Below the pieces are notes generated by a model. It saw only the letters and a program-made list of their open reading frames with translations, did not search any database and was not told the origin of the DNA. Made by a program: the position numbers and the translations under genes. Of a DNA stretch of 64,000 nt, positions 15,933-42,245 are shown piece after piece; positions within the stretch are counted from its first letter, which is position 1, and every line of letters begins with the position of its first letter. Source of the stretch: Escherichia phage AV112; sequence record OR352942.1. The stretch is one strand, 5' to 3'.

Positions 15933-15961
15933 ATTATACTCCAACCGTCCTTGGTTGTAAA
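15933..15961 (-). promoter_or_regulatory. sigma70-like early promoter with spacer stem-loop
   Basis: Minus strand TTTACA-17 nt-TATAAT; spacer contains CAACC/GGTTG inverted repeat. Confidence 0.55.
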
Positions 15962-15966
15962 CTGAT

Positions 15967-16899
15967 TTATGATTTTAATGCATTCATTGCGTTAAAAAGT
16001 TTAGAGTACTGCAACTGGAGCTTGGTAACTACTTGTTGAGCATCACGAAGCTTAGCTTGTGCTTTGTCAAGTTCAACAGACAGTTGATCCACAGTGCCTT
16101 TGATTTGATTATAATAGTAATCTTCGGCAGGAAGAAGGCCGTTAGAGATTTCCAGTTTAGTCGTCGGTGTGCCGTTAAACATAACAGGTTGTGCTGAAGC
16201 TGCATTAATCTTACCGATAGTCGGGGCGACAATAATTGACGCTTCGAACGTTGCATTTTCCTTTTTAAGATTTTGATAGTATTCAGAGTCTTTGTGCCAC
16301 CATGGCGCAGGAACCTTTTTACCAATAGATACACGAGCCTGGATAGCGATATGGCCCTTATTCTTGATAACGTCGATAATATTAAGCTCACGAGAATAAA
16401 TTGCTTTAATCTGGTGAATATTATCACCTAACACTTCCAACGCTTGGTGGAATACACGAGCAACGTTATCATTCTTAGGTTTATACGTAAGAGTGAACTC
16501 GTTCTCACTGATAACCATGATTTCTAACTTATCGTAAGTATATTTCAAATGTTTCATGTTAATTGCTTGAGGACGAATACGAGAAGCAATGGCCATCAGA
16601 TTGTTAAGGTTATTCCGGAACTGCTTAGCGAAATATTGTCCTTCACCACCAATACAAAAATTACGAAGTTTCTGTTTGGCTAATAAACGGCTGAACTCAC
16701 CGTTTTTAATGAACTCTTTAACGGGTGTGTTAGTAACGCATTCAAATTGAGTAAACTTACGAGAAGTAATCCCATAATATGAACAGATTTCCTCAATCTC
16801 TTCAGGAGTCTTTACAGGCATACGGATAGGATTAGGACCTGGGGTATATGCGTTCGAGGTAAATTCTTTGATAAGTTCTCTACGTGTAATAGAAGCCAT
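15967..16899 (-). CDS. hypothetical early protein with C-terminal coiled coil
   Basis: 310 aa; C-terminal LSVELDKAQAKLRDAQQVVTKLQLQYSKLFNAMNALKS. Confidence 0.5.
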   Translation of the reverse strand: MASITRRELIKEFTSNAYTPGPNPIRMPVKTPEEIEEICSYYGITSRKFTQFECVTNTPVKEFIKNGEFSRLLAKQKLRNFCIGGEGQYFAKQFRNNLNNLMAIASRIRPQAINMKHLKYTYDKLEIMVISENEFTLTYKPKNDNVARVFHQALEVLGDNIHQIKAIYSRELNIIDVIKNKGHIAIQARVSIGKKVPAPWWHKDSEYYQNLKKENATFEASIIVAPTIGKINAASAQPVMFNGTPTTKLEISNGLLPAEDYYYNQIKGTVDQLSVELDKAQAKLRDAQQVVTKLQLQYSKLFNAMNALKS

Positions 16900-16925
16900 T
16901 TTATATTCCTCATGTTGAAAAATTT

Positions 16926-16954
16926 ATTATACTCCAACCATCCTTGGTTGTACA
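16926..16954 (-). promoter_or_regulatory. sigma70-like early promoter, same cassette type as 15933-15961
   Basis: Minus strand TGTACA-17 nt-TATAAT; spacer shares ccaaccatccttggttg with the neighbouring cassette. Confidence 0.5.
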
Positions 16955-17950
16955 TCATTCCTTAAGAAGTTTTACTACTTGAATAAGATTAGCTCGTTCT
17001 GTTTTATTTTTACCGTTTAAGCCTGCTAATCGTGAGATTTCATCGTCAGTCTGTTGAATAGTTACATTAAGTTCGTTAATCAAAGCTTCAAAGTATTTGA
17101 TTTGCTCAGCATGTTTTGATTCAAATTTCTGAACCGGAATAACGTCTTGGTTTAGTTCATCAATAAGGTCTTTAAGAGCATCTTCTTGATTGATATCATA
17201 TTCAACTTCTTTTATTTCTTCAACGAGCTCGTCTTTATATCTAACGTCTTTTAGTCCTGGTGCTGGTCCTGAAATCTCTTCTTTAAGAGTACAAACATAT
17301 CCAATACGGTATCCAATGCCGTCTCGCTTGATATCAACTTCGTCAATAAATCCACAATGTTTAAGACCAGAGCCGATTAAGTCAAAATATCCTTGACGAC
17401 GTCCTTCAAACGTTACACGAACTACTAAGACAGTTTTACCTGCAACCTTTTGAAGCTCACATTTATAAAAGTTTGTTGAACCTGAATAACGTGGATGAGT
17501 TTTAAAGTTCATCTGACGATCTAGGCCCATTTGTAAGCGTGCTGATACGGCCATAAAACGTGTTTGGTTCTCGTTAAGATGAGCAACAATCCATTTCAAA
17601 GGCATTTTACACTGTTCACGACCGAACAAATCAGTACGTCCTAGATTACGCAGGATGTTGTTAGAGTTAATCATCGACAGAACATTAAGTTTATTCAGCG
17701 CGCTGAAGATTCCATCAGCCATTGATTTTCCGTAACCTTTACACGCTTTAATAAGCGCTCGCGGTAGATTAGCATAGATTTCAGACGGCATATGAAAATC
17801 AAATTTACTAGTCAGTAATTGATGAACTTGGATAGCAATTTGCTCATAATTAAGTGCTCTGCGATCATTATGATCTTTAAACCACACTTTAATCTGTGAA
17901 GCACATAAACCGTTAATTTCATGTTTTACCGCATCAGATGTAATGCTCAT
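16955..17950 (-). CDS. hypothetical early protein with C-terminal coiled coil
   Basis: 331 aa; acidic coiled-coil tail. Confidence 0.5.
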   Translation of the reverse strand: MSITSDAVKHEINGLCASQIKVWFKDHNDRRALNYEQIAIQVHQLLTSKFDFHMPSEIYANLPRALIKACKGYGKSMADGIFSALNKLNVLSMINSNNILRNLGRTDLFGREQCKMPLKWIVAHLNENQTRFMAVSARLQMGLDRQMNFKTHPRYSGSTNFYKCELQKVAGKTVLVVRVTFEGRRQGYFDLIGSGLKHCGFIDEVDIKRDGIGYRIGYVCTLKEEISGPAPGLKDVRYKDELVEEIKEVEYDINQEDALKDLIDELNQDVIPVQKFESKHAEQIKYFEALINELNVTIQQTDDEISRLAGLNGKNKTERANLIQVVKLLKE

Positions 17951-18012
17951 ATCTATTTCCTCAGATTGAATTGGAACTCAAAACCATTATAACCCGTCCT
18001 TGGGTAAAGCGT

Positions 18013-18540
18013 TTATGCGTGAACCGTCTTTAAACGTTCTTCAAATTTCCGAAGAGTACTAATACGTTCTGCTTTCTGTTTTGTATAGTTTGCAATACGT
18101 TCTGAAGTGAGAGCGTATCGTTCGTTTACTGTTTCTTTCATGAAGTCAGGGATTTCACGAGAAGCTTTAATTTCATCAAACTTATCGAGTACTGCCTGGT
18201 CTTCAGCGATTAAATTTTCGTACATCTCGATATCTTTCTTGATGAAGTCGATATCTTCCTGGGTTACTTTGGATAAACGAGATGCTTTATCCTTTTTGTA
18301 TTGCTCGTTAGTTTCACGAGACCAGAATAATGTACGTTTTTTGTTAGTGTTTTTGTAGACTTCCACAATTCCAACTGAATCGATGATAGCAATCCAATTC
18401 CAGCGAGATTTGAAAATCTGACCTCCGTCCACGGTAATCTCGTTACCATAAGCAACATCATTAAAGAACTTGCTTTGTGCTTCAGATTTAAATTTACCGT
18501 CGTTATAATTTACCAGGTTGAAAATATCTTTAGCGTTCAT
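18013..18540 (-). CDS. hypothetical protein
   Basis: 175-aa ORF. Confidence 0.45.
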   Translation of the reverse strand: MNAKDIFNLVNYNDGKFKSEAQSKFFNDVAYGNEITVDGGQIFKSRWNWIAIIDSVGIVEVYKNTNKKRTLFWSRETNEQYKKDKASRLSKVTQEDIDFIKKDIEMYENLIAEDQAVLDKFDEIKASREIPDFMKETVNERYALTSERIANYTKQKAERISTLRKFEERLKTVHA

Positions 18541-18564
18541 GTTTTACCTCCAGTAGTTGATAGG

Positions 18565-18597
18565 TCTATAATAACACAACCATAGACCTTGTAAACA
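18565..18597 (-). promoter_or_regulatory. early promoter with inverted repeat around the -10
   Basis: Minus strand GTTTACA...TGTGTTATTATAG; plus-strand taggtctat...atagacct inverted repeat. Confidence 0.5.
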
Positions 18598-18598
18598 A

Positions 18599-18886
18599 CT
18601 AAAAGAAACTTTTTTCGGTATTTTTTCCACTGAACCAAACCGACTTCGGGACTTTCTGTAATTTTTCGGATTTAAGTTTCTCTTCCTGTTCTTTCTTATA
18701 TGCATCCTTGTCGTACTGGAACAATTCTAAGGCATTCTTTTGTAGACGGTCTAAGGTAATTAAGGCTTTAGTTTTTCCTTTCAAGGAAGAGTCCTGGCGA
18801 ACCTCCTCGCTATATTGCATCGTAGAACTAACCATACGATGAGCATACAGTTCGACTGCGGCTTTAATTTTTTGCATAAAATCCAT
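18599..18886 (-). CDS. hypothetical protein
   Basis: 95-aa ORF. Confidence 0.4.
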   Translation of the reverse strand: MDFMQKIKAAVELYAHRMVSSTMQYSEEVRQDSSLKGKTKALITLDRLQKNALELFQYDKDAYKKEQEEKLKSEKLQKVPKSVWFSGKNTEKSFF

Positions 18887-19024
18887 AACATATCCTCTTT
18901 GATTTGTACACCATTATTTTTAAATATTTCTATGCCCTCAGTAGGTTCCTGGTGTCCTTCTTTGAGGTAAGCCATATGATTATTCATCTTTATGGCTTTT
19001 GTTACCTCAGAACTTCCTATAAGC

Positions 19025-20026
19025 TTATTTCAGTAAAGTAACTTCAGAGATTTCCTCCCAACCATCTTTATCAGTTGAAATAAAATCTGCTACATAAAGA
19101 GCCGTACGTAATGATACATTGCGAAGACGAGATACATTAGCCTTCATCCAGGACAATGCTTTATACGTTTCTGCATCTGTCAGACCACGTTTCTGCATCA
19201 TGTCAGTAGATAATATTACATCTTCAACTCGAACCATAATCTCTTCATTAGAGTGTACTCCAAGGTCGAGATACACTGAACGAGATACTAAAGCTTGAAG
19301 GTGTGGGGCAAGTTTCGAACCGCGTTCTAACTCTTTATCGATATCAACGTTTGTAATGAAAACGATAGTACCTTCAAACTCAAATTCTTTATCAATACCC
19401 TTATCATCGAGATAAGATGACGCAGTGCTCCAACAAACTTTGCGTTTATCTCCAGTATCTAATGCTGCTTTAAGAAGGTTCAAGATGTCCATATCTGAGA
19501 ATACGTCAACGTCGTCGATTAAGAGAACGCTGTCTGCATCACGGTTGAGCCAAAGTTGTTCGTAAAGGCCAATACCGGAGATTTTACCATTAATGCTTTT
19601 GTATTTGATGAAACCATTATCATTAGCGTTATTAAGTGCTTTATCCAGAGAATACGTCTTACCAATACCGGCTGCACCTGAAATAATGAGTGAACGAATT
19701 TTGCCATCGATAATGCCATTCGTCATCATGTTCATTACTTTAAAGCGTTTGTTGATACGAGTTTTCATATCTTCAGTGCTTTCAACAACTGCAACTGGTG
19801 ACGTCTCAACTCCTTCCATTACGATGTCTGATTTGAAGACCCATACTCCACGTTCAGACCCATCAATCATAACGAAAATTTTACCATCACCTAAGTGGGA
19901 ACATTCAGGATTAAGCTTTGCTGGGAACCATGTCTTTGTGGCAACATAAGAACCAGAGATTTCGTTATTACGATAAATACCTTTTTTGATTTGAACGTTG
20001 AACATTTTATTCTCCAATTTACTCAT
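19025..20026 (-). CDS. P-loop NTPase (AAA-like ATPase)
   Basis: 333 aa; Walker A ISGAAGIGKTYS and Walker B VLLIDDVD. Confidence 0.6.
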   Translation of the reverse strand: MSKLENKMFNVQIKKGIYRNNEISGSYVATKTWFPAKLNPECSHLGDGKIFVMIDGSERGVWVFKSDIVMEGVETSPVAVVESTEDMKTRINKRFKVMNMMTNGIIDGKIRSLIISGAAGIGKTYSLDKALNNANDNGFIKYKSINGKISGIGLYEQLWLNRDADSVLLIDDVDVFSDMDILNLLKAALDTGDKRKVCWSTASSYLDDKGIDKEFEFEGTIVFITNVDIDKELERGSKLAPHLQALVSRSVYLDLGVHSNEEIMVRVEDVILSTDMMQKRGLTDAETYKALSWMKANVSRLRNVSLRTALYVADFISTDKDGWEEISEVTLLK

Positions 20027-20039
20027 TTCGTTTCGATAG

Positions 20040-20072
20040 GTCTATAATAACATGTTTAAAGCAAAAGTAAAC
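20040..20072 (-). promoter_or_regulatory. early promoter (GTTTAC, 17-nt spacer, extended -10 TGT-TATTAT)
   Basis: RC reads GTTTAC-TTTTGCTTTAAACATGT-TATTAT, about 40 nt upstream of the ATPase start. Confidence 0.55.
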
Positions 20073-20074
20073 AA

Positions 20075-20293
20075 TTATTTGCGACGAGATTTTTTGGTAA
20101 GAGGTTGAAAGAACACTGCTTTACCTGCTGGGGTTAAGGTGACTCGTAATGCATTACCGATTCCTAAGGATGCTTTAACTAGACCTTTAGCTTTCAGTTC
20201 ACCGAATGCTTGACGTTGGTCTGCATCACGAGTGTTAACCATAAGACCTTTATCACCTGCTTCACGAATCATTTCTAACATTTTGGTTTTCAT
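20075..20293 (-). CDS. hypothetical small basic protein (start moved to internal Met)
   Basis: MKTKMLEMIREAGDKG... preceded by GAGGAG; the longer track ORF would run through the promoter. Confidence 0.45.
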   Translation of the reverse strand: MKTKMLEMIREAGDKGLMVNTRDADQRQAFGELKAKGLVKASLGIGNALRVTLTPAGKAVFFQPLTKKSRRK

Positions 20294-20379
20294 TTTGTTC
20301 TCCTCTTGTTTTGATAGGTCTATAATAACATATCCTAAAAGCATGTACACTACTTTTTAAAAATATTTTAACCCCCTAA

Positions 20380-20395
20380 AGGGACCCGAAGGTCC
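20380..20395 (-). terminator. hairpin GGGACC-UUCG-GGUCCC just after the stop of 20402-20683
   Basis: Plus strand gggaccc-gaag-gtcccc; minus-strand UUCG tetraloop hairpin followed by UUUAGGGGG rather than a clean U-run. Confidence 0.35.
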
Positions 20396-20401
20396 CCACA
20401 T

Positions 20402-20683
20402 TTACTTATCGCACTTAGCAACATAATTAGGCATATCACAGAATACGGAGCGAGTAACTACTCGGCCCTTTGACCATGCTTCAGTTGCTTGTCCGGCTGT
20501 GCTATTAATATAGCTTGATCTAATGTTCTCAATACCCTGAGAATGTGATGCATTTACCGAACCATTAGAAGACCCAGAAGACTGGTTACCACCAGCTCCT
20601 GCGCTACCGCTGGCTGCACCCGTGGTAGCACCAACAGAGAATGCCATCATTACTGCGAATAAACCAATTACTATTTTTTTCAT
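20402..20683 (-). CDS. small secreted Gly/Ser-rich protein
   Basis: 93 aa; N-terminal signal-peptide-like MKKIVIGLFAVMMAFSVGA, then a Gly/Ser/Asn-rich low-complexity stretch. Confidence 0.5.
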   Translation of the reverse strand: MKKIVIGLFAVMMAFSVGATTGAASGSAGAGGNQSSGSSNGSVNASHSQGIENIRSSYINSTAGQATEAWSKGRVVTRSVFCDMPNYVAKCDK

Positions 20684-20714
20684 ATTTACCTCAAGTTAAT
20701 GGTTATTTATCTAC

Positions 20715-21704: not shown

Positions 21705-22174
21705 TTGGCCTTATATTCGAGAGTAGGACAGATTTTTTCTTTACGAGCTTTAAGGTATTCACCTATTAATGATTTCTTACGTTCAATAGGCTCAAGACCA
21801 TTTTTAATTCGTTCTTGGTTTTGTGCAATGAGCTCAATTTCTTTATAATATTTTCTGTCGTTATATTTGTCTAACAACCAAGACGGACCAATTACCAACC
21901 CGGTAGCAATAAAAGCCATGACTGCTACCATTAAAATGCCTACACCAATTGAGGCCGGAACTAATGTCCATAGACTGCTAAAAACAAAGAATCTAGTTAA
22001 AATTTCCTGGCCAATGATTACTACTGCTGCTAAAATAGCAAATCCAATAATTGAAACAGACAATACTGGGATTAACGTTTTCCAAAAATAAGCACACAAC
22101 GTTTTCGGGCGATTCCATGTACTATTGAACGCGGCATAAATTTTAAAGTGCCAAGAGTTTTCATTGATAATCAT
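21701..22174 (-). CDS. membrane protein (multiple TM segments)
   Basis: 157 aa; several hydrophobic segments; stop overlaps the nucleotidyltransferase start. Confidence 0.5.
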   Translation of the reverse strand: MIINENSWHFKIYAAFNSTWNRPKTLCAYFWKTLIPVLSVSIIGFAILAAVVIIGQEILTRFFVFSSLWTLVPASIGVGILMVAVMAFIATGLVIGPSWLLDKYNDRKYYKEIELIAQNQERIKNGLEPIERKKSLIGEYLKARKEKICPTLEYKAK

Positions 22175-22183
22175 AATAATTCC

Positions 22184-22895: not shown

Positions 22896-23020
22896 TTTAC
22901 CATACTCGTTTCAATAAGATTCACTATGCCGTTTACCATGTTATAAGTAAACATCGGATAATTGTATTGTACTACAACATAAGCGATAAGCAAAAGTTTC
23001 ATTTTGTTCTCCATTTGTTT

Positions 23021-23060
23021 TGGTAGGATTACTATATCATAGTCCTACCAAGACGTAAAC
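23021..23060 (-). promoter_or_regulatory. early promoter with inverted repeat (gtagga...tcctac)
   Basis: RC reads GTTTAC-N18-TATAGT; the -10 is flanked by a 6-bp inverted repeat. Confidence 0.45.
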
Positions 23061-23293: not shown

Positions 23294-23492
23294 ACATTTG
23301 TAATTCGGTGTGGGCTTCGGCCATCTTTTTCATAGCTTTGTTAATGTCGATGTCTCCATCTTCGCATCCATGAGCATTTTCCCAATCAGATACCGCATTA
23401 GCGTACTCTTCAATCAAAAACATTAACTTAGAAATTTTTTCTTTACGTGTCATAACGTTCTCCTCTAGTAAGTAAAGACTACTATAACACAA
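23274..23492 (-). CDS. hypothetical protein
   Basis: 72-aa ORF. Confidence 0.4.
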   Translation of the reverse strand: MCYSSLYLLEENVMTRKEKISKLMFLIEEYANAVSDWENAHGCEDGDIDINKAMKKMAEAHTELQMYVNEIM

Positions 23493-23509
23493 CCTGAGGA
23501 GAAGTAAAC
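23477..23509 (-). promoter_or_regulatory. early promoter GTTTAC-17 nt-TATAGT
   Basis: RC of gactactataacacaacctgaggagaagtaaac. Confidence 0.5.
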
Positions 23510-26623: not shown

Positions 26624-27082
26624 CTAGATTTTAATCACTGCTTTAGAAGCTTTTCCTGGTAGTCGTTTACTGTTAATAATAGCCATTCTGCATTGAAGAG
26701 TCTTCATTTTGAACGCTGGATTTTCGCGACAAACTGTAAGTCCTAACCAAAGATTTCCGTCAGTTATTTCTAAACGGCCTGGGCGATATTCGACACCTTC
26801 GACAAAATCTTCATCAACATCTGGACGTGCCGGCATTGATAAAAATTCTGTAACTTCTTTAACATGATTTTTTACTTTACGAAATAATTCAAAAACGTAG
26901 TTCTCATCTATTTCTCTCTGGATGGCACGATCTAAGAGATGTTGAGAATACTTGATATGAAAGCCTGGTAGTCCAAGAGACTTTGCAGCATCTTTTATAC
27001 CGGCATTTATTTTGCGGAACTCCGTTTCAAAGATTCGACGGAGTTTATTACGGCGGATAAAAACGTCAGAATTGATAGTCAT
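26624..27082 (-). CDS. regB: RegB endoribonuclease
   Basis: 152 aa; closely matches T4 RegB as recalled (MTIN..VFIRRNKLRR.FE.EFR...KYSQHLLDRAIQREIDE.YVFELF...ITDGNLWLG.TVC...CRMAIINS.RLPGKASKAVIK). Confidence 0.85.
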   Translation of the reverse strand: MTINSDVFIRRNKLRRIFETEFRKINAGIKDAAKSLGLPGFHIKYSQHLLDRAIQREIDENYVFELFRKVKNHVKEVTEFLSMPARPDVDEDFVEGVEYRPGRLEITDGNLWLGLTVCRENPAFKMKTLQCRMAIINSKRLPGKASKAVIKI

Positions 27083-27104
27083 TTTTTATTTCTCCTCTAG
27101 TTGA

Positions 27105-27141
27105 CAGGTCTATAGTAACACATCTAGAGGAGAAGTAAACT
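27105..27141 (-). promoter_or_regulatory. early promoter with flanking inverted repeat CCTCTAG/CTAGAGG
   Basis: RC reads GTTTAC-N17-TGTTACTATAG; the -10 is enclosed by a 7-bp inverted repeat. Confidence 0.5.
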
Positions 27142-29053: not shown

Positions 29054-29294
29054 ATTATTTCTCTTAAGGTTTGGGCCATTCCATGGCACATGTTAGGTCC
29101 TTCGATTCGCTATGTAAACCCATTACCGCACTTGGGCTCGACCTTATTACAGGTTGGCGGGAATCCCTCATAGAATCATGAGGTCCAGGTTGTTCCCATG
29201 TTATTTGAATGTAAATATTTTTGCCGTAATACTTATACCAGTGTGGCTTCGTTAAAATTTTTTCATCGAGTCATTTTACCTCTCCAAGTAATTA

Positions 29295-29328
29295 TGAATA
29301 TACTATCACAATTTTAGGAGAAAGTAAA
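29295..29328 (-). promoter_or_regulatory. early promoter upstream of the structured leader 29090-29294
   Basis: RC reads GTTTAC-N18-TAGTAT. Confidence 0.4.
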
Positions 29329-29331
29329 CTG

Positions 29332-29675: not shown

Positions 29676-30254
29676 TTAATTACCACGGGCTGCATTAGCA
29701 ACGGCGTAAGCGTACTGAACATTAGCGTCTTTAAACGTACCTTTAGAGGTATCTAGTTCTGCCTTAAAGCCACCTTTAGCCATAACATCGGCAAATTCTT
29801 TACGGAAGGCCATTGCATCAAGACCTTTCCATGATGATTTGTGCTTGGCGAATTCAAGACCAGCGTAGTTGACAGCCTTAGCTAATTTATTATCAATGAC
29901 CCATTTACCGGCTTTAGGCACAAACACCGGGCCTTTCTGTTTAGAGAATAGTTTTAAATTCCAGCGACGAAGATCACTGTCGGCTTTAACAAAAGCTGCG
30001 TCTAAGTTACTAGCAACAACATCTTGAATATGGCCAAATTTAAGCCCATCAACTTCAATATTTAAATCGGTACGCCAGCGAAGTCCTTCCCAAGCGAAGG
30101 CTTTAAAATCAGAAGCTTTTGTGGCTAGATATCGTTCAAGTGGAGCAGTTTTAGGGTCAAAGCCGTTACCGCCACGATAAGTCCACTCGTCCTTATTAAT
30201 GCCTTGAGCTTTTCCTGCAAAGGCCTCGGCGATAAATTCTTTATATGTTTTCAT
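29676..30254 (-). CDS. ipIII: internal protein with capsid-targeting sequence (IPIII-like)
   Basis: 192 aa; N-terminus MKTYKEFIAEA; length similar to T4 IPIII. Confidence 0.7.
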   Translation of the reverse strand: MKTYKEFIAEAFAGKAQGINKDEWTYRGGNGFDPKTAPLERYLATKASDFKAFAWEGLRWRTDLNIEVDGLKFGHIQDVVASNLDAAFVKADSDLRRWNLKLFSKQKGPVFVPKAGKWVIDNKLAKAVNYAGLEFAKHKSSWKGLDAMAFRKEFADVMAKGGFKAELDTSKGTFKDANVQYAYAVANAARGN

Positions 30255-30277
30255 TTTTGTTTCCTTGTTTGTTTTGA

Positions 30278-30314
30278 TAGAGTAATTATACCATATTAAT
30301 ACTTAAGCGTAAAC
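30278..30314 (-). promoter_or_regulatory. early promoter GTTTAC-N18-TATAAT
   Basis: RC of gatagagtaattataccatattaatacttaagcgtaaac. Confidence 0.5.
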
Positions 30315-30584: not shown

Positions 30585-30998
30585 TTAGTAAATTGATTTA
30601 CCATAGTATTTGTACCAAGTAGGACGTTGAGCAATTTTTTCATCTAAGCGTGCTTGACTTATCGCAATGGACGCTTCGGACGGGACATAATTATTACGAA
30701 ATTCGGCAGGGATGTCGGAAATATCCTGGACAGTCGTGTCCTTGATTTTGAAACCACGTTTCAAGCATTCAGCGATTAGCTCGATTTGTCGTAAACGTAA
30801 AAATTCGAGTTTGTCGTAAAAGAATGTTACGTGGCCGGTGCCTAAGATAAATGTTGGAGAGATTTTAAAATCCTTTACACGTTTACCATTTTGAACATGT
30901 TTACGGACTGCACCGAATACACGAGGTAATTCACGATACTCAGCCATAAGATGTTGGTCGGTCAGTTCAGAAACAAGTGTTAAATTGATACGGGTCAT
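30585..30998 (-). CDS. denV: DenV endonuclease V (pyrimidine-dimer DNA glycosylase)
   Basis: From the internal Met: [92 protein letters not shown], near-identical to T4 DenV as recalled. Confidence 0.92.
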
Positions 30999-31003
30999 AA
31001 TTT

Positions 31004-31055
31004 CCTCCAAGTAGTTGATGAATGTATAGTATCAAAACCCTTGGAGGAAGTAAAC
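31004..31055 (-). promoter_or_regulatory. early promoter enclosed by 8-bp inverted repeat CCTCCAAG/CTTGGAGG
   Basis: Plus strand cctccaag...tgtatagtatca...cttggagg-aagtaaac; minus -35 GTTTAC, -10 in the loop. Confidence 0.45.
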
Positions 31056-33491: not shown

Positions 33492-33797
33492 TTATTTTCC
33501 TCGGCATTCTTTAATGAAATTTTCTAGATTGGTAGATTCAATAGCTTTTTTACGAGCTTCTGCGTGTTCTTCTTCAGACAATTTACATTTATAATTGACC
33601 CAGGCATTATGGTCGAAACTAGTCGTGGCATATAATAACAATGCTCCGACGAATAATAAAAACGGTGATAAGAATACAAAACCAGGAACACCATCCATAT
33701 CGTAAGCCTTTTGTAATACTGCAACAGAAAGGGCCGCGTAAAAAGGTGATGCAAATATTGTTAAAAGACCAATTCGGTTGGTTTCTGTTAATTTCAT
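33492..33797 (-). CDS. membrane protein with C-terminal xFIKECR tail
   Basis: 101 aa; two hydrophobic helices; ends ...NLENFIKECRGK. Confidence 0.5.
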   Translation of the reverse strand: MKLTETNRIGLLTIFASPFYAALSVAVLQKAYDMDGVPGFVFLSPFLLFVGALLLYATTSFDHNAWVNYKCKLSEEEHAEARKKAIESTNLENFIKECRGK

Positions 33798-33826
33798 ATT
33801 ATTCTCCTCATGTTTTAATAGGACTA

Positions 33827-33854
33827 CTATAACATAGTCCTATCATGTTGTAAA
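33827..33854 (-). promoter_or_regulatory. early promoter/stem-loop cassette (palindrome ataggactactataacatagtcctat)
   Basis: Minus strand TTTACA-17 nt-TATAGT with the -10 inside a 9-bp inverted repeat; near-identical copies at 35112-35150 and 41876-41915. Confidence 0.55.
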
Positions 33855-33867
33855 CAGTTTTGTGAAG

Positions 33868-34852: not shown

Positions 34853-35104
34853 TTAAATTTCACGACATGCGATATCATATTCATCCCATAGGTCATCGTG
34901 TGAAGCCTCTACTAATGGAACGATTGTACCATTTATGTCTTCATTATAAGGGCAAATTGTACAGTGTGCATCTTCGAATCGGATGCCTTTGTGTTCAGAT
35001 TTTTTATAACGCATATCGAATATCTTTGCAAACTTTTCACGAGTAATGGTTTTAGCAACCACTTTGGTTCCAACACTTTCGTAATAAATCATTGTGGACT
35101 CCAT
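34853..35104 (-). CDS. hypothetical Cys/His-containing protein
   Basis: 83-aa ORF. Confidence 0.4.
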   Translation of the reverse strand: MESTMIYYESVGTKVVAKTITREKFAKIFDMRYKKSEHKGIRFEDAHCTICPYNEDINGTIVPLVEASHDDLWDEYDIACREI

Positions 35105-35111
35105 TTAATTT

Positions 35112-35150
35112 GATAGGACTACTATAACATAGCCCTATCTTGTTGTAAAC
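35112..35150 (-). promoter_or_regulatory. early promoter/stem-loop cassette (copy)
   Basis: gataggactactataacatagccctatcttgttgtaaac; RC TTTACA-17 nt-TATAGT. Confidence 0.55.
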
Positions 35151-37265: not shown

Positions 37266-37293
37266 AAGGAGGACCGGAGTCCTCCGTATTATT

Positions 37294-37887
37294 TTATTTC
37301 AAAGAGTTAATATATTCTTGTACATCAGCAGAAGTGGTTTCGACACCAGCTGGAGTGCCATTGAACGTTTCAACACGAGTCAGAGTGTCTTCGATATCAA
37401 CCTTAGTCAGTGCAGCGATTTCAATTACATCGTCAGCCGTAGAGATACCAAGGGCATTGGCTGCTCGAGTTTCACGAATGTATTCGAGTTTGATTGCCAG
37501 GTTCTGACGAGCATCGTCAAGTTCAACCACCTTACGAGCAATTTCAATTCGCATAGCAGCGTACCCGTCAGCTTTTGTATTAAGTTGTTCGGCGGTTCGA
37601 CGATACAGAAGACCAAGCTTAGCATGCATGGTAACATCTTGTCCTTCAGCCAGGAGCTTACGAATTTCAAGTTCCTTAGAAGCGGCTTGCTTATTCTTTT
37701 CATTAACAAGTTCGCGAATACGTTTTTCTTCATTAATAGATTTAACAGAAGCCGTTTTTAGTTCTTTGATTTGGGTAATCAACTTATCTGCGGCTGCGTT
37801 ATACTGTTCTTCGACAGTCAGATTTTTAGCCATAGCAGTACCCAGTTTAGTGCGGATGAATTCAACAAGTTTCTTCAGTGTGTTCAT
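37294..37887 (-). CDS. coiled-coil protein (possibly PspA/IM30-like)
   Basis: About 197 aa from MNTLKKL; long predicted helices; the PspA-like call rests on composition only. Confidence 0.4.
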
Positions 37888-37919
37888 ATTATTACCTTTC
37901 AATTGGTGGTTTATTATCC

Positions 37920-37965
37920 AATGAGAGCATTATACTCTGCTCTCAAGAGTTTGTACACTTATTTG
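37920..37965 (-). promoter_or_regulatory. early promoter/stem-loop cassette, copy B of the 46-bp perfect direct repeat
   Basis: Identical to 7276-7321. Confidence 0.6.
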
Positions 37966-38264: not shown

Positions 38265-38768
38265 TCATTTATTTTTAATTTTGCAAATTTTTTCTGCTTC
38301 AGCAATTGCAGCGTCAATGATGCTTTGTGCAATTTTATTACTAGTTGACCTGGCAATCACACTAAGAACAATTTCTTTTTCTTCACCACCCCAACCCCAA
38401 GTCCTTTGTTCGTGGGTACCTTTAACTACAGCTGAAACTTCAACAGAACGTCCACCATCAGAAGTTTTAACATCTACAACCCAATCACCATCTTTCTCTT
38501 CTACCCTTGATTTATCCCAAGAAATACTAATATATGATTCGTTGTCAATAGAAGTCGCCGGGTTTTTCTCTACCGTAAGACCTTCACTTTCCAGCCATTC
38601 AATAGTATTTGCGCATAAATCGGAGGAACACCTCATCGGGAACCGGCAAGATTTTTCACCTTTAGATGCGGCGTTATACATCTTTTCTAAAATACGCTTT
38701 TGCACGTTTTTAAAAATAGTTTCAGCAGATTCTTCAGATTTTTTATTCAGTTCAGTATAAAGACTCAT
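38265..38768 (-). CDS. hypothetical protein
   Basis: 167-aa ORF. Confidence 0.45.
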   Translation of the reverse strand: MSLYTELNKKSEESAETIFKNVQKRILEKMYNAASKGEKSCRFPMRCSSDLCANTIEWLESEGLTVEKNPATSIDNESYISISWDKSRVEEKDGDWVVDVKTSDGGRSVEVSAVVKGTHEQRTWGWGGEEKEIVLSVIARSTSNKIAQSIIDAAIAEAEKICKIKNK

Positions 38769-38789
38769 AACATTTTCCTATGTTGTTGA

Positions 38790-38825
38790 TAAGTCTATAG
38801 TATCATGTCCTTAGAAGAAGTAAAC
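38790..38825 (-). promoter_or_regulatory. early promoter (gataagtctatagtatcatg...gtaaac)
   Basis: RC shows GTTTAC then TATAC/TATAGA -10-like element. Confidence 0.4.
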
Positions 38826-38857
38826 ATCTTTATGAAATATTTTTATGCCCTAGATAC

Positions 38858-38885
38858 CAAAAAGCCCCAACCGTAAGGAAGGGGC
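38858..38885 (-). terminator. rho-independent terminator, copy 2 of the conserved GCCCC...GGGGC hairpin
   Basis: aaaaagcccc-aaccgtaaggaa-ggggc; U-run on the minus strand. Confidence 0.6.
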
Positions 38886-39356: not shown

Positions 39357-39400
39357 GTTGCTTTTCCTAAGTTAATTAACTTATCTATTTATTATTATGC

Positions 39401-39428
39401 AAAAAAGCCCCAACCTTTCGGAAGGGGC
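39401..39428 (-). terminator. rho-independent terminator, copy 3 (GNRA-loop variant), downstream of the tRNA/stable-RNA unit
   Basis: aaaaaagcccc-aacctttcggaa-ggggc; on the minus strand a GAAA-loop hairpin then UUUUUU. Confidence 0.6.
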
Positions 39429-39479
39429 TATGCCTTGCGGCAACCTTGTCGGGGTTCCACCTGCTAAGGCAAGTGTTTG

Positions 39480-39740
39480 TACGAAACGCCGGGATTCGAA
39501 CCCGGTTATTAAGCAGTTGACGCTACTCAATATTTTTAAAAGGCCATATCTCGACCATATCCGAACGTTCCGTCAAAAACGCTACTCGGCTTACGGCAAA
39601 GATATTTCCTCGAATCGATAATTCTGTGCGCCGTTTCAGCTGTGATAGTAAAGAACCAGAACACAGTAAAACTGTGGGAGGAACTATACTCCAGGGAACA
39701 TCAGTCCGACGACTTACCGGTAGCGACCCGGTTTCTTGTT
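39480..39740 (-). ncRNA. probable stable small RNA(s) with tRNA-like 3' domain (T4 species 1/2-like)
   Basis: No ORF; minus strand contains a T-arm CCGGG-TTCGAAT-CCCGG followed by an acceptor-like strand CGTTTCG that could pair with CGGAACG about 85 nt upstream, but the D/anticodon region is not canonical. Confidence 0.35.
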
Positions 39741-39816
39741 TGGTCGAGACAGTAGGGGTCGAACCTACGACCTAGGACTTAGAAGGTCCTTGCTCTTCCT
39801 TCTGAGCTATGCCTCG
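39741..39816 (-). tRNA. tRNA-Arg (anticodon TCT), CCA encoded
   Basis: Manual fold: acceptor CGAGGCA/TGTCTCG, D-arm GCTC..GAGC, anticodon loop CTTCTAA, T-arm GTAGG-TTCGACC-CCTAC. Confidence 0.8.
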
Positions 39817-40568: not shown

Positions 40569-40665
40569 ATTATTAACAAAGGCTCTCAAGCAAGAACCCT
40601 TGATGATAGAGGGTATTAATCAGTGCGATATGAGTTAATAATAACAAATAATTCTTAAAGCATAT

Positions 40666-40959: not shown

Positions 40960-41375
40960 CCTTCATCAACAATAGTATGCGTATTGGCATTTACAATTTG
41001 CCACCAATCAAAGCGATTAGAACCATACATCAGTTTGTTTTCATTTTCTTTGATAATATCACGGAGTTCATCTTCAGTGGCGGCTTTCGCGATTAAATCA
41101 GCATATCCACCACGAGGATAATAATTATCACCTGCAAAAAGTAAAAAGTTTGGTTTAATGTTATTGAACTCTTCAAGAGTAATAACTTTTCCTGACGGTT
41201 GAACAATCTCTACATATTTATATCCCAATTTTTGAGCAGCATCTACTGCTTCAAGCAAAGTATCATGAGCCCATCCAATTTGACAACCTGGCTTTTCAGA
41301 TGGATTAGCCTGATAATCCGCATACACTTTGTACATTCTATTCACCTTTAGAAATTTTATCCATAACGATAGCAA
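40956..41375 (-). CDS. hypothetical protein
   Basis: 139-aa ORF. Confidence 0.45.
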   Translation of the reverse strand: MLSLWIKFLKVNRMYKVYADYQANPSEKPGCQIGWAHDTLLEAVDAAQKLGYKYVEIVQPSGKVITLEEFNNIKPNFLLFAGDNYYPRGGYADLIAKAATEDELRDIIKENENKLMYGSNRFDWWQIVNANTHTIVDEG

Positions 41376-41523
41376 TTAAACCAATTAAAAATGCTACTAC
41401 AAGTGAAAACACATTTTCTGCTGTAGTTAATAATCCGCATATAAATCCAACAAACATTGAAAAACTAAAAGCGGAAGCAGAAATTGCAATAGCAACATTT
41501 CGAATTAATTCACAACGTTTCAT
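41338..41523 (-). CDS. small membrane protein
   Basis: 61 aa; two hydrophobic segments. Confidence 0.4.
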   Translation of the reverse strand: MKRCELIRNVAIAISASAFSFSMFVGFICGLLTTAENVFSLVVAFLIGLIAIVMDKISKGE

Positions 41524-41581
41524 TTTATTCTCCTCTGTAGTTGATAGGGTAATAGTATCACTACCCCATCTAAAAGTAAAC

Positions 41582-41854
41582 TCATTTTAAATAAATTGCG
41601 TATTTTTTATAGCCACCAGGCTCGTGTCGAAGACCCTTATCATTAGCAAAACGCTCAATGTTGTTAATTTGATTCTGGTCAAGTTCAGAGATGTCAAACA
41701 CGAAATAGTTACGTTTGTTACCAACTGTTACATAGTCAGTTAAATCAATACCATATAGGTAATTGATGTCAGCAATCATAGTCTTGACAGCTTTGCTAAT
41801 TTTTACTTTTTCGTTAAAAGTAGCTTCATTGATAAATTCTTTAAATGTTTTCAT
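41582..41854 (-). CDS. internal-protein-like protein with capsid-targeting sequence
   Basis: 90 aa; N-terminus MKTFKEFINEA. Confidence 0.6.
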   Translation of the reverse strand: MKTFKEFINEATFNEKVKISKAVKTMIADINYLYGIDLTDYVTVGNKRNYFVFDISELDQNQINNIERFANDKGLRHEPGGYKKYAIYLK

Positions 41855-41875
41855 TTTATTTTCTTAATTAATTTT

Positions 41876-41915
41876 GATAGGACCTACTATAACATAGTCC
41901 TATCAACATGTAAAC
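41876..41915 (-). promoter_or_regulatory. early promoter/stem-loop cassette (copy)
   Basis: gataggacctactataacatagtcctatcaacatgtaaac; RC TTTACA-17 nt-TATAGT inside an inverted repeat. Confidence 0.55.
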
Positions 41916-41917
41916 TA

Positions 41918-42181
41918 TTAAATACCTGCTTCGCGCTTAACATAAGCAACATAAGCTTCGATAGCTTTCTTGCTGGTAATTTTTACCTGACCGCGTCCGT
42001 TGCCTTCTTTAGAGTTTTTCTTAACAACTACATTACCATCTTTAACACCCCATACATGGACATAAGTACCGATGTTTCGGTCGTAGAACATTGCATGGTC
42101 GTTGTTGTAAGAGAATGATTCGTAGTTCTCTGTCAGAGTAGAAGATTGAGATTCAGCGATAAATTCTTTATACGTTTTCAT
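41918..42181 (-). CDS. internal protein with capsid-targeting sequence (IPI-like by position)
   Basis: 87 aa; N-terminus MKTYKEFIAES; sits between the tRNA region and 57B, where T4 carries ipI. Confidence 0.6.
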   Translation of the reverse strand: MKTYKEFIAESQSSTLTENYESFSYNNDHAMFYDRNIGTYVHVWGVKDGNVVVKKNSKEGNGRGQVKITSKKAIEAYVAYVKREAGI

Positions 42182-42206
42182 TTTATTTCCTTGAGGTCGT
42201 TTATTT

Positions 42207-42245
42207 GATAGGATGATAGTAACACACCATCATCCTTATGTAAAC
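42207..42245 (-). promoter_or_regulatory. early promoter with inverted repeat aggatgatag...catcatcct
   Basis: RC reads GTTTAC-N17-TGTTACTATC. Confidence 0.45.

What the first reader, a model, noticed from the sequence alone, without database searches (positions are those of the whole stretch)
15933..42245. Family of early promoters embedded in short palindromes, in near-identical copies through the accessory regions
At least 18 minus-strand sites show GTTTAC(A), about 17 nt, then an extended -10 (TGn-TAT[AT][AG]T), with the -10 flanked by or embedded in an inverted repeat, for example 18565-18597, 20040-20072, 23477-23509, 27105-27141, 30278-30314, 31004-31055. Three copies (33827-33854, 35112-35150, 41876-41915) share the core ataggac(c)tactataacatag(t/c)cctatc almost exactly, and 15933-15961 and 16926-16954 share ccaacc(g/a)tccttggttg. 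They punctuate the hyperplastic regions so that nearly every accessory gene or pair has its own promoter. Beyond transcription, the palindromes could be recombination hotspots or nuclease/regulator binding sites.
Basis: partly seen in the sequence, partly recalled or inferred. Interest (0 to 1): 0.5.

Follow-up and report, generated by a model that had tools for sequence, protein, structure and literature searches.

The report
T4-type early promoter cassettes (PeSLs)
The repeated motifs are the strong early promoters of a T4-like (RB69-type) phage, each packed with a small hairpin into a ~60-base cassette between accessory genes; this kind of element is already published as the "PeSL", so the finding is real but largely ordinary.

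Summary
The window is Escherichia phage AV113 (Mosigvirus, RB69-like). Eighteen minus-strand sites between 15.9 and 42.3 kb match GTTTAC-N17/18-(TGn)TAnnnT. All sit just upstream of minus-strand genes, 27-35 nt before the start codon, and fill 18 of the 23 intergenic gaps of at least 40 bp. Fourteen of the 18 carry a hairpin whose 5' arm lies in the promoter spacer.

These are T4-type sigma-70 early promoters. Orthologues in T4 itself (regB, denV, ipII) have the same anatomy. Together with their stem-loops they match the published PeSLs (promoter-early stem-loops; Arbiol 2010, Comeau 2014), including the link with indels: 14 of 43 breakpoint clusters against six close relatives fall in cassettes that cover 4.4% of the DNA.

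What I add:
- Across 241 promoters from 43 T4-like loci, spacer/downstream complementarity is promoter-specific (33% versus 2.7% in chimeric controls).
- It favours the sense strand.
- In about a quarter of promoters it buries the downstream Shine-Dalgarno sequence, but only in read-through transcripts. This is the logic known for T4 genes e and 49.

Recombination follows cassette homology, not the palindromes. A regulator or nuclease binding site is not supported. No transcript data exist.

The parts
42179..42245 (-). Early promoter cassette (-35 G at 42245 to the ATG) for the IP-like gene 41918-42181. Type A hairpin AGGATGAT/ATCATCCT, with the -10 in the loop.
   Evidence: (z=-3.5). Breakpoint at 42213.
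41852..41915 (-). Early promoter cassette for the IP-like gene 41582-41854. Type A hairpin GATAGGACTA/TAGGTCCTATC around the -10. Member of the near-identical D5 family.
   Evidence: (z=-3.5). Breakpoint at 41902.
41521..41581 (-). Early promoter cassette for gene 41338-41523. Type A hairpin with a G.U pair on the sense strand.
   Evidence: z=-3.4; sense -16.3 versus antisense -10.0 kcal/mol. Breakpoint at 41581.
38766..38825 (-). Early promoter cassette for gene 38265-38768. No hairpin. Preceded by the intrinsic terminator at 38850-38885.
   Evidence: z=+0.85; D9. Breakpoint at 38831.
37885..37958 (-). Promoter cassette with a weak -35 (GTGTAC) for gene 37294-37887. Type A hairpin TGAGAGC/GCTCTCA. 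Its 46-nt core is 100% identical to 7276-7321.
   Evidence: z=-2.2; D11. Breakpoint at 37964. The downstream genes are unrelated.
35090..35150 (-). Early promoter cassette for gene 34853-35092. Type A hairpin with one G.U pair. D5 family.
   Evidence: (z=-5.0).
33795..33855 (-). Early promoter cassette for gene 33492-33797. Type A hairpin. Reference copy of the D5 family.
   Evidence: (z=-3.9). Breakpoint at 33843-33855.
30996..31055 (-). denV early promoter cassette. Type B: spacer TTCCTCCAAG pairs with CTTGGAGGAA, which contains the Shine-Dalgarno sequence.
   Evidence: z=-5.2; SD opening cost 10.3 kcal/mol in read-through RNA versus 0.3 in the promoter's own transcript.
30252..30314 (-). 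ipIII early promoter cassette. Best match to the consensus. No hairpin.
   Evidence: z=-0.6. Breakpoint at 30278.
29273..29329 (-). Orphan cassette: a T4-type denV promoter with an SD-pairing spacer plus only the first 8 nt of denV (ATGACTCG, then TGA). It sits at the T4-syntenic position downstream of ipII and is followed by ~180 bp of non-coding DNA.
   Evidence: near-identical to the T4-like denV promoter in L005; T4 gene order. Breakpoints at 29092-29275.
27080..27140 (-). regB early promoter cassette. Type B: TTCTCCTCTAG pairs with CTAGAGGAGAA (Shine-Dalgarno).
   Evidence: z=-4.2; T4 regB promoter has the same design; 15.6 versus 0.2 kcal/mol. Breakpoint at 27144.
23451..23509 (-). Early promoter cassette for gene 23274-23453. 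Type B (TTCTCCTC/GAGGAGAA). Preceded by the terminator at 23512-23547.
   Evidence: 10.5 versus 0.7 kcal/mol; D9.
23012..23060 (-). Early promoter cassette for the 40-aa gene 22892-23014. Type A hairpin GGTAGGACTA/TAATCCTACC, a compensated variant of the D5 core.
   Evidence: (z=-4.2). Breakpoint at 23040.
20291..20350 (-). Promoter cassette (GTGTAC -35) for gene 20075-20293. No hairpin. Left repeat of a cassette-flanked gene.
   Evidence: Gene 20075-20344 is absent from L002, L045 and L046, with a 65-bp junction overlap.
20003..20072 (-). Early promoter cassette for gene 19025-20005. No hairpin. Right repeat of the same indel.
   Evidence: z=+1.0. Breakpoint at 20063.
18538..18596 (-). Early promoter cassette for gene 18013-18540. 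Type A hairpin AGGTCTAT/ATAGACCT.
   Evidence: Orthologues in other phages pair the spacer with the SD instead.
16897..16955 (-). Promoter cassette with a degenerate -35 (ATGTAC). Short hairpin CAACC/GGTTG wholly inside the spacer (type C). Twin of 15962.
   Evidence: z=-2.7; D15, 96%.
15902..15962 (-). Early promoter cassette for gene 14954-15904. Type C spacer hairpin.
   Evidence: The downstream genes of the twin are not paralogues.
8213..8272 (-). Type B cassette for gene 7967-8215.
   Evidence: z=-3.6; 7.0 kcal/mol. Breakpoint at 8212-8215 in three relatives.
7255..7324 (-). Twin of 37958 (ATTTAC -35), type A.
   Evidence: z=-3.3; D11. Breakpoint at 7317-7324.
13517..13598 (-). Promoter for gene 13349-13519. 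No hairpin.

Best explanation
Each site is a compact, ~60-bp T4-type early gene cassette. Its order is: upstream stop codon, A-rich tract, GTTTAC (-35), a 17-18 nt spacer ending in TGn, TAnnnT (-10), CCTATC start region, a ~20-nt leader, the Shine-Dalgarno sequence, then ATG.

Host sigma-70 RNA polymerase fires these promoters immediately after infection. This is inferred from the consensus and from orthology to T4 early promoters.

The cassettes are the published PeSL elements. Because the same ~50-65 bp recur between unrelated accessory genes, the phage's homologous recombination machinery uses them as joints. Genes are gained, lost or swapped cassette by cassette. The comparative part is shown here; the mechanism comes from Arbiol 2010.

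The hairpins most likely act in RNA. The 5' arm always lies upstream of the predicted start site, so only transcripts reading through from an upstream promoter contain both arms.
- In type B cassettes (regB, denV, 23453, 8215 and the 29329 relic) the 3' arm is the Shine-Dalgarno sequence. Read-through mRNA is then closed to ribosomes, while the promoter's own transcript is open. This is the same logic as T4 genes e, soc, 49 and I-TevI, but with an early promoter.
- In type A cassettes (nine in this window) the stem encloses the -10 and ends at about +3. Its role in read-through RNA is unresolved. Candidates are an attenuator, a 3' stabiliser of the upstream cistron, or a block to re-initiation.
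For: - Identity of the window: 100% match to phage AV113, genus Mosigvirus.
- Promoter family: strand, position and consensus statistics. In 43 T4-like loci there are 278 sense hits against 4 antisense. [quoted passage not shown] 57 early promoters were predicted in RB69, with C preferred at -3 to -1 (PMC1524935).
- PeSL definition: it includes stem-loops between -35 and -10 or overlapping the -10, with G-T pairs, location in hyperplastic regions, and association with indels (PMC2839356; PMC4122927).
- Recombination joints: 14 of 43 breakpoint clusters lie in cassettes covering 4.4% of the DNA (p=2e-9). One gene is flanked by two cassettes and missing in three relatives with a 65-bp overlap. 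Near-identical cassettes precede unrelated genes. There is a relic denV cassette.
- Hairpins are selected: a spacer/downstream duplex of -14 kcal/mol or stronger occurs in 33% of 241 promoters against 2.7% of chimeras. Within-class, non-homologous chimeras give 89% versus 6% (type B) and 80% versus 1.4% (type A). Orthologous regB (13/15) and denV (16/16) promoters keep the SD paired using different arm sequences and positions.
- RNA or sense strand: sense beats antisense 64:27 (p=1e-4), and 34:14 by cluster.
- SD opening cost of at least 8 kcal/mol: 24.7% of read-through RNAs, 4.6% of chimeras, 0% of own transcripts.
- Positive control: the same metric picks out gene e and gene 49 among the 59 genes without an early promoter.
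- Read-through context: hairpins occur in 52% of promoters whose -35 abuts the upstream stop codon, against 19% otherwise (p=6e-6).
Against: - There are no transcript 5' ends, no expression data and no recombination assay for this phage. Start sites are assumed to lie 7 nt after the -10.
- Related promoters are not independent, so the p-values are optimistic.
- A simple 'is the SD paired in the MFE fold' measure did not separate real promoters from chimeras (54% versus 52%). Only stability-weighted measures do.
- In this window most hairpins are type A, which leave the SD free (opening cost 0.4-1.4 kcal/mol). The translational explanation therefore covers only 4-5 of about 14 hairpins here.
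- Column-wise covariation could not be scored, because the arms slide between orthologues.
- Sense-strand preference would also fit a hairpin in non-template single-stranded DNA.
- The PeSL authors showed terminator-like activity for one RB49 stem-loop.
Confidence: 0.8

Rival explanations
1. The stem-loops are transcription terminators or attenuators. They would stop transcription coming from upstream so that each cassette is transcriptionally insulated. This is the function proposed by the PeSL authors.
For: - One RB49 PeSL stem-loop reduced lacZ expression as much as the rrnB T1 terminator (PMC2839356).
- Hairpins are commoner where the upstream gene abuts the promoter. This fits any role in read-through.
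- Type A stems do not touch the SD.
Against: - None of the type A or type B stems is followed by a T-run. They are followed by A-rich leaders. The terminator scan did not list any of them, while it did find 37268-37285.
- The window has separate canonical terminators (GCCCC...GGGGCTTTTT) upstream of two cassettes.
- This rival does not explain why the 3' arm is so often exactly the SD, or why orthologues move the 5' arm while still covering the SD.
Confidence: 0.25
2. The palindromes themselves are the recombination hotspots or nuclease targets. They would act as double-stranded DNA cruciforms, cut for example by endonuclease VII.
For: - Breakpoints are strongly enriched at the cassettes.
- The phage encodes endonuclease VII and several homing endonucleases.
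Against: - Four of the five cassettes without any hairpin (20072, 20350, 30314, 38825) are also breakpoints, against 10 of 16 with hairpins.
- Junctions show up to 65 bp of shared cassette sequence, as expected for homologous exchange.
- G.U-type mismatches favour one strand, which weakens a cruciform.
- Stems are only 6-11 bp, with loops of 8-24 nt.
Confidence: 0.1
3. The palindromes are operators for a dimeric phage or host DNA-binding protein, for example the unknown factor that shuts off T4 early promoters.
For: - The mechanism of early-promoter shut-off is still unknown (PMC2988021; PMC3014915).
- The dyads are centred on or near the -10.
- One core (GATAGGACTA...TAGTCCTATC) recurs four times.
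Against: - Arm sequences are almost unrelated between promoters (GATAGGAC, GAGAGC, AGGTCTAT, GGATGAT, TTCTCCTC and others). In other phages the orthologous promoters use still other arms. The dyad centre and arm spacing vary from 8 to more than 24 nt.
- Pairing tolerates G.U on the sense strand only.
- Four strong promoters lack any dyad.
Confidence: 0.05
4. The inverted repeats are a by-product of the promoter and ribosome-binding-site consensus, or of chance.
For: - A pyrimidine-rich spacer start (TTCTCC) and a purine-rich SD are generically complementary. Chimeric RNAs also often show weak SD pairing (52%).
Against: - Stable pairing is 7-57 times commoner in real promoters than in chimeric ones, including within the same class and excluding homologues.
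- z-scores reach -5 against dinucleotide shuffles.
- Pairing extends beyond the SD core through promoter-specific bases (CTAG, CAAG, ATAGATG).
Confidence: 0.02

Closest known systems
PeSLs (promoter-early stem-loops) of T4-type phages: Arbiol et al. 2010 (RB49/phi1) and Comeau et al. 2014 (PST/T4, nt-1/KVP40)
   Same: - The composite element is the same: AT-rich tract, sigma-70-type -35 and -10, a stem-loop, SD and ATG within about 100 bp or less.
- The elements concentrate in the hyperplastic regions and sit next to ORFans.
- They coincide with insertions, deletions and replacements between close relatives.
- Stems lie between -35 and -10 or overlap the -10, with G-T pairs, as in RB49/phi1.
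- Degraded 'half' elements occur (the 29329 relic).
   Different: - PeSLs have not been described for RB69-like phages (Mosigvirus).
- The PST/T4 paper places the stems just upstream of the promoter, whereas here (and in T4's regB, denV and ipII promoters) they span the -10.
- The papers interpret the stems as terminators. They do not note that the 3' arm is frequently the Shine-Dalgarno sequence, or that the start site lies inside the hairpin.
- Mini-circles were not tested here.
T4 early promoters (consensus of Liebig and Rueger, and Wilkens and Rueger; RB69 predictions of Nolan et al. 2006)
   Same: - GTTTAC at -36 to -31, the TGn extended -10, TAnnnT, an upstream A-tract, and C-rich -3 to -1.
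- The sites lie upstream of the same genes as in T4 (regB, denV, ipII/ipIII, nrdC.x).
- All are co-oriented with the early genes.
   Different: The consensus descriptions I could read treat the promoters only as RNA polymerase binding sites and do not mention hairpins. The -10 here is more often TATAGT, TACTAT or TATTAT than TATAAT.
Promoter-inside-hairpin translational control of T4 genes e, soc, 49 and I-TevI
   Same: - The 5' arm of an SD-sequestering hairpin lies upstream of a proximal promoter's start site. Long transcripts are therefore closed and proximal transcripts are open.
- My SD-opening metric recovers e (15.2 kcal/mol) and 49 (8.9) in this window, alongside regB (15.6), denV (10.3) and gene 23453 (10.5).
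   Different: - The known cases use late (or middle) promoters, to delay translation until late in infection.
- Here the embedded promoter is an early one, so the effect would be to restrict translation to the immediate-early burst or to the gene's own transcript.
- This has not been tested experimentally for any early promoter, as far as the literature available to me shows.
Morons of lambdoid phages (gene with its own promoter and terminator)
   Same: Single accessory genes carry their own expression signals and are inserted between resident genes.
   Different: Morons are not flanked by a conserved repeated cassette and are thought to arrive by illegitimate recombination. Here the repeated promoter cassette itself supplies the homology.

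Membership tests
PeSL (promoter-early stem-loop) | A sigma-70-like early promoter (-35 and -10 at 16-18 nt) oriented towards a downstream gene | tested here: met
   22 strict minus-strand hits against 0 on the plus strand. All cassettes lie 27-35 nt upstream of a start codon.
PeSL (promoter-early stem-loop) | A stable stem-loop within the element, in one of five positions relative to -35 and -10 | tested here: met
13 of 21 window cassettes have z<-2. Family-wide enrichment over chimeras is shown.
PeSL (promoter-early stem-loop) | An AT-rich tract upstream of -35, and SD plus ATG at the 3' end | tested here: met
   The consensus is aaAA.aGTTTAC. The upstream 20 nt are 69% AT, against 63% overall, which is a modest difference. 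SD and ATG sit at a fixed distance.
PeSL (promoter-early stem-loop) | Preferential location in hyperplastic (accessory) regions | tested here: met
   18 cassettes lie in 15.9-42.3 kb (nrdC to 57B accessory genes). 3 more lie in the 55-nrdC accessory stretch. None lies in the 46-64 kb baseplate block.
PeSL (promoter-early stem-loop) | Association with indels or replacements between closely related phages | tested here: met
   14 of 43 breakpoint clusters fall in 4.4% of the sequence (p=2e-9). Cassette-flanked genes are present or absent between relatives.
PeSL (promoter-early stem-loop) | Demonstrated promoter and terminator activity; formation of mini-circles | not testable with these tools
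   Needs reporter assays and inverse PCR on infected cells.
T4-type early promoter | GTTTAC -35, TGn extended -10, TAnnnT, upstream A-tract | tested here: met
   Consensus. TGn is present in 16 of 22 strict hits.
T4-type early promoter | Transcription start about 7 nt downstream, active within the first minutes, independent of phage protein synthesis | not testable with these tools
   No transcript data for AV113 or RB69 were found. Orthology to the T4 regB early promoter is the only indirect support.
Promoter-in-hairpin translational control (e/soc/49/I-TevI type) | SD and/or AUG sequestered in a stable helix in long transcripts | tested here: met
   Met for the regB, denV, 23453, 8215 and 29329-relic cassettes only (opening cost 7-15.6 kcal/mol). 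Not met for the nine type A cassettes (0.4-1.4 kcal/mol).
Promoter-in-hairpin translational control (e/soc/49/I-TevI type) | The proximal promoter starts inside the structure, so its transcript lacks the 5' arm | tested here: inconclusive
   Met if the start site is 7 nt after the -10. In that case the own-transcript SD opening cost is at most 3.5 kcal/mol in every case, and 0% reach 5 kcal/mol among 223 promoters. The start sites are predicted, not mapped.
Promoter-in-hairpin translational control (e/soc/49/I-TevI type) | Measured translational repression of the long transcript | not testable with these tools
   Requires reporter or ribosome-profiling experiments.
Intrinsic (Rho-independent) terminator | GC-rich stem immediately followed by a U-run | tested here: not met
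   Type A and type B stems are followed by A-rich leaders, and none was listed by the terminator scan. True terminators occur separately at 23512-23547, 38850-38885, 39393-39428 and 37268-37285.

The most novel reading that the evidence does not exclude
A general rule of T4-like phages, not stated in the PeSL or T4 literature I could read: the spacer or discriminator of an early promoter is selected to pair with sequence downstream of its own start site, very often the Shine-Dalgarno sequence of the gene it serves.

Under this rule every immediate-early gene would be translated (or exposed to RegB) only from its own promoter's transcript. It would be silent on read-through, delayed-early or middle transcripts. 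That would be a built-in post-transcriptional 'off switch' contributing to the unexplained rapid shut-off of early protein synthesis. The type A hairpins would be a second, still unexplained, read-through-specific RNA signal placed at the cistron boundary.
Probability: 0.4. Interest if true: 0.5.

Novelty: new member of a known kind. Interest (0 to 1): 0.3.

Why it matters
For genome annotation, these cassettes mark the true transcription units and several true start codons of an RB69-like phage. They also explain where accessory genes are swapped between therapeutic-phage candidates.

For phage biology, the main picture is already published: early promoters that double as recombination linkers.

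The only part that could add something is the quantitative evidence that the hairpins are selected on the mRNA strand. In about a quarter of promoters across T4-like phages they hide the ribosome binding site in read-through transcripts only. That would extend the classic gene e / gene 49 mechanism to the early class, and it bears on how early protein synthesis is switched off.

Tried and rejected
- RNAalifold on a MAFFT alignment of 20 orthologous regB promoters gave no consensus structure. The arms sit in different registers in different phages. I therefore used per-sequence folding with chimeric controls instead of column covariation.
- The measure 'SD paired in the MFE structure with a partner upstream of the start site' did not discriminate real promoters from chimeras (54% versus 52%). 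I replaced it with the ensemble cost of opening the SD.
- The generic sigma-70 scan is uninformative in this AT-rich genome (74 hits against 63 expected). Only the T4-specific pattern is specific.
- My first sense-versus-antisense comparison was biased, because cases had been selected on the sense energy. I redid it with symmetric selection and with clusters.
- Rfam at gathering thresholds finds only the ten tRNAs.
- The T4 RefSeq record carries no promoter features. The Miller 2003 T4 genome review is not held. I found no global start-site map for T4 or RB69.
- Tandem gene duplication as the source of the near-identical cassettes is rejected. The downstream proteins show no similarity (blastp).
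- A protein-binding operator and chance were both considered and rejected (see rival explanations).

Full report
**What the window is.** Bases 15000-35000 match Escherichia phage AV113 (OR352943.1) at 100% identity. AV113 belongs to Straboviridae, Tevenvirinae, genus Mosigvirus, the RB69-like phages. The window is the last 64 kb of that record. Genes run on the minus strand from gene 45 down to genes 2 and 4 at ~45.7 kb; plus-strand baseplate genes follow. A better-annotated relative (S143_2) shows that 14-43 kb is the accessory stretch nrdC.x - rI - tk - vs - regB - ipII/ipIII - denV - e - nudE - e.x - tRNAs - internal proteins - 57B. This is one of the classical hyperplastic regions of T-even phages.

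- The exact pattern GTTTAC-N14-19-TATAAT occurs 5 times, against 0.18 expected.
- A graded scan gives 22 high-scoring minus-strand hits and none on the plus strand.
- Seventeen of the 22 lie in the 7.6% of the sequence that is intergenic (p=2e-15).
- Between 15.9 and 42.3 kb, 18 of the 23 intergenic gaps of at least 40 bp contain one.
- The -10 ends 27-35 nt before the start codon, and most of these intergenic gaps are only 55-76 bp long. The cassette therefore fills the whole gap.
- The consensus of 21 cassettes is aaAA.aGTTTAC-N17/18(TGn)-TAnnnT-a..CcTATCaAa.
- The repeat finder independently returns the cassettes as the largest repeat families (D1, D2, D5, D7). It also adds a 46-nt, 100% identical twin at 7276-7321 and 37910-37955.
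- Folding each region from -35 to ATG gives z<-2 against dinucleotide shuffles in 13 of 21 cassettes.

**Anatomy of the palindromes.**
- Type A: the 5' arm is in the spacer, the -10 hexamer is in the loop, and the 3' arm is the start region (..CCTATC), ending at about +3. Sites: 42245, 41915, 41581, 37958, 35150, 33855, 23060, 18596 and 7324.
- Type B: the start of the spacer (TTCTCCTC...) pairs with the Shine-Dalgarno sequence (..GAGGAGAA) ~30 nt downstream, so the -10 and the start site sit in a large loop. Sites: regB 27140, denV 31055, 23509, 8272 and the relic at 29329.
- Type C: a 5-bp hairpin wholly inside the spacer. Sites: 15962 and 16955.
- In every type the 5' arm lies upstream of the predicted start site.

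**What they are.** They are T4-type early promoters.
- Nolan et al. predicted 57 such promoters in RB69, many in front of novel ORFs, and noted the C-rich -3 to -1 region. They do not mention hairpins (PMC1524935).
- The combination of early promoter, stem-loop, SD and ATG, clustered in hyperplastic regions and coinciding with indels, is the PeSL of Arbiol et al. 2010 and Comeau et al. 2014.
[quoted passage not shown] It says these are the commonest positions, and it marks G-T pairs.

**Do relatives break at these sites?** I compared 5-46 kb with six close relatives: S143_2, mogra, ZQ3 and three IMG/VR contigs, at 93-98% identity.
- Of 43 breakpoint clusters, 14 fall inside cassettes that cover 4.4% of the region (p=2e-9).
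- This is still roughly twice the share expected if any gene boundary were equally likely. That figure is my rough count; no formal test was run.
- Clean example: gene 20075-20344 is flanked by the similar cassettes 20072 and 20350. It is missing in three relatives, with 65 bp of overlap at the junction.
- Conversely, relatives carry extra genes flanked by duplicated cassette sequence at 30226-30278, 41518-41581 and 42149-42213.
- Near-identical cassettes precede unrelated proteins, so the similarity comes from the cassette, not from gene duplication.
- A relic tells the same story. At 29329 there is a T4-type denV promoter followed by only ATGACTCG and a stop, at the place where denV sits in T4. 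The functional denV is now 1.3 kb away behind a different cassette.
- Cassettes without hairpins are breakpoints as often as those with hairpins (4 of 5 versus 10 of 16). The palindrome itself is therefore not what recombines.

**Are the hairpins selected, and at what level?** I collected 42 T4-like loci around tk and found 278 sense and 4 antisense promoter hits, 241 of them unique.
- Chimeric control: a spacer-to-downstream duplex of -14 kcal/mol or stronger occurs in 33% of real promoters. It occurs in 2.7% of chimeras that join the spacer of one promoter to the downstream part of another (Mann-Whitney p=3e-18).
- Stricter control: within one hairpin class and excluding homologues, the contrast stays at 89% versus 6% (type B) and 80% versus 1.4% (type A).
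- Orthologues: regB and denV promoters from different phages use quite different arms and keep pairing. Examples are TTCTCCTCTAG, TTTTCCTCTTGACTG, ATCTCCTGTAAG, ATCCTCATTTG and GCCTCCTTT. In half of the denV variants the 5' arm has moved from the spacer to the -10/discriminator. The SD is still paired in 13 of 15 regB variants and 16 of 16 denV variants.
- Strand: with symmetric selection, the sense strand folds better than the antisense strand in 64 cases against 27 (p=1e-4). By cluster the count is 34 against 14. The chimeric baseline is 222 against 187. Mismatches are therefore preferentially G.U on the mRNA strand.
- SD accessibility: opening the SD costs at least 8 kcal/mol in 24.7% of read-through RNAs, 4.6% of chimeras, and 0% of transcripts starting at the predicted start site.
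- Positive control: among the 59 window genes without an early promoter, only gene e (15.2 kcal/mol) and gene 49 (8.9) exceed 8 kcal/mol. These are two of the textbook T4 cases of hairpin-sequestered initiation regions. regB (15.6), gene 23453 (10.5) and denV (10.3) are in the same range.
- Context: hairpins occur in 52% of promoters whose -35 lies within 15 nt of the upstream stop codon, and in 19% of the others (p=6e-6; p=0.02 for the best-scoring promoters). This fits a role in read-through RNA.

**Most likely mechanism.**
- Inferred from consensus, position and orthology: sigma-70 polymerase starts ~7 nt after each -10 immediately after infection.
- Shown comparatively, with the mechanism taken from the literature: the repeated cassette is the homology used to insert, delete and exchange accessory genes.
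- Inferred from the controls: the hairpins act in transcripts that enter the cassette from upstream. In type B cassettes these transcripts cannot load ribosomes on the downstream gene, or can do so only in coupling with the upstream ribosome, and their GGAG is shielded. The cassette's own transcript lacks the 5' arm and is open.
- Unresolved: the role of type A hairpins, which are the majority in this window. They leave the SD free. They are not followed by a U-run, so they are not canonical terminators. Possible roles are an attenuator as proposed for RB49, a 3' protective hairpin for the upstream cistron, or a barrier to re-initiation.

**Rivals.**
- A terminator or attenuator role cannot be excluded for type A (about 0.25).
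- Cruciform or nuclease hotspots, and protein operators, are unlikely for the reasons above.
- Chance or a consensus artefact is excluded by the chimeric controls.

**Novelty and verdict.**
- The finding is real and correctly read as an early-promoter family. It is a new set of members, in an RB69-like phage, of a known kind (T4 early promoters / PeSLs).
- 'Every gene or pair has its own promoter' is overstated. There are 18 promoters for 58 genes. The number of genes each promoter heads before the next one is 1,1,4,2,7,2,6,2,2,6,10,2,6,1,2,2,1,1.
- The modest added value is the evidence that the hairpins are under sense-strand selection and often act as anti-Shine-Dalgarno elements with the start site inside the loop. 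I did not find this stated in the papers I could read.
- Everything about activity rests on sequence. No transcript or reporter data were available.

Noticed in passing
window 29090-29331 (minus strand): A ~240-bp stretch with no gene. It begins with an orphan T4-type denV promoter plus the first 8 nt of denV (ATGACTCG, then TGA), at the position denV occupies in T4. Phage mogra lacks 29092-29275. It looks like the scar of a cassette-mediated relocation of denV.
   Followed up: partly
window 7276-7321 and 37910-37955: A 46-nt, 100% identical promoter core (weak -35, TATAAT in the loop of TGAGAGC/GCTCTCA) lies 30 kb apart in front of unrelated genes. Both upstream edges are breakpoints in relatives. 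This suggests recent conversion or transfer of the cassette alone.
   Followed up: partly
window 23512-23547, 38850-38885, 39393-39428 (minus strand): Three copies (78-86% identical) of one intrinsic terminator, GCCCCTTCC(N4)GGTTGGGGCTTTTT(T). Two lie directly upstream of early promoter cassettes, and one lies after the tRNA/small-RNA region.
   Followed up: no
window 29634, 30254, 30578, 31338, 41854, 42181 (gene starts, minus strand): Six small genes begin with the same ~10 residues (MKTY(K/Q)EFI(A/T)E), which is the capsid-targeting sequence of T4 internal proteins. This gives a second repeated module next to the promoter cassette. Several breakpoints (42149-42159, 30226, 41849) fall in it.
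   Followed up: partly
window 11595-12416: A homing-endonuclease gene between nrdD and gene 49 is absent from S143_2, mogra and ZQ3 (breakpoints at 11545 and 12412). This indel is unrelated to promoter cassettes.
   Followed up: no
window 31818-31880 and ~12886-12945 (minus strand): Gene e (lysozyme) and gene 49 have strongly sequestered Shine-Dalgarno sequences (opening cost 15.2 and 8.9 kcal/mol). The e hairpin ACCTCC...GGAGGT encloses a late-promoter-like TATAAA. These are the known T4 arrangements, conserved here, and they served as positive controls.
   Followed up: partly
window ~17985-18010 and ~40625-40655 (minus strand); also 6560-6620: MotA-box middle-promoter-like sites occur in gaps that lack an early promoter: CGCTTTAC-N12-TATAAT, and ATGCTTTA-N12-TATTAT upstream of the tRNA cluster. 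The region upstream of gene 55 has TGCTTTA plus a hairpin ATAGGTCT/AGACCTAT around a TATAAT, i.e. a type A stem on a probable non-early promoter.
   Followed up: no
window 39357-39743 (minus strand): A 387-bp non-coding stretch downstream of the ten tRNA genes contains a tRNA-like T-arm/acceptor end (GGGTTCGAATCCCGGCG) and ends in a terminator. It may be the counterpart of T4 stable RNAs C and D. There is no Rfam hit at gathering thresholds.
   Followed up: no
window 13980-21701, 20075-20344 and 6925-7296 (annotation of OR352943.1): There appear to be annotation problems in the public record. Nine genes in 13980-21701, most of them nrdC.x-type accessory genes, are labelled 'thioredoxin'. The annotated starts at 20344 and 7296 lie inside the promoter; the SD-preceded ATGs at 20293 and 7257 are the likely true starts.
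   Followed up: partly
window 32420-32439: A perfect GC-rich 8-bp-stem palindrome, TGGCGGCGGTACCGCCGCCA, lies inside gene 32313-32804. The equivalent spot is annotated as a repeat_region in phage mogra.
   Followed up: no
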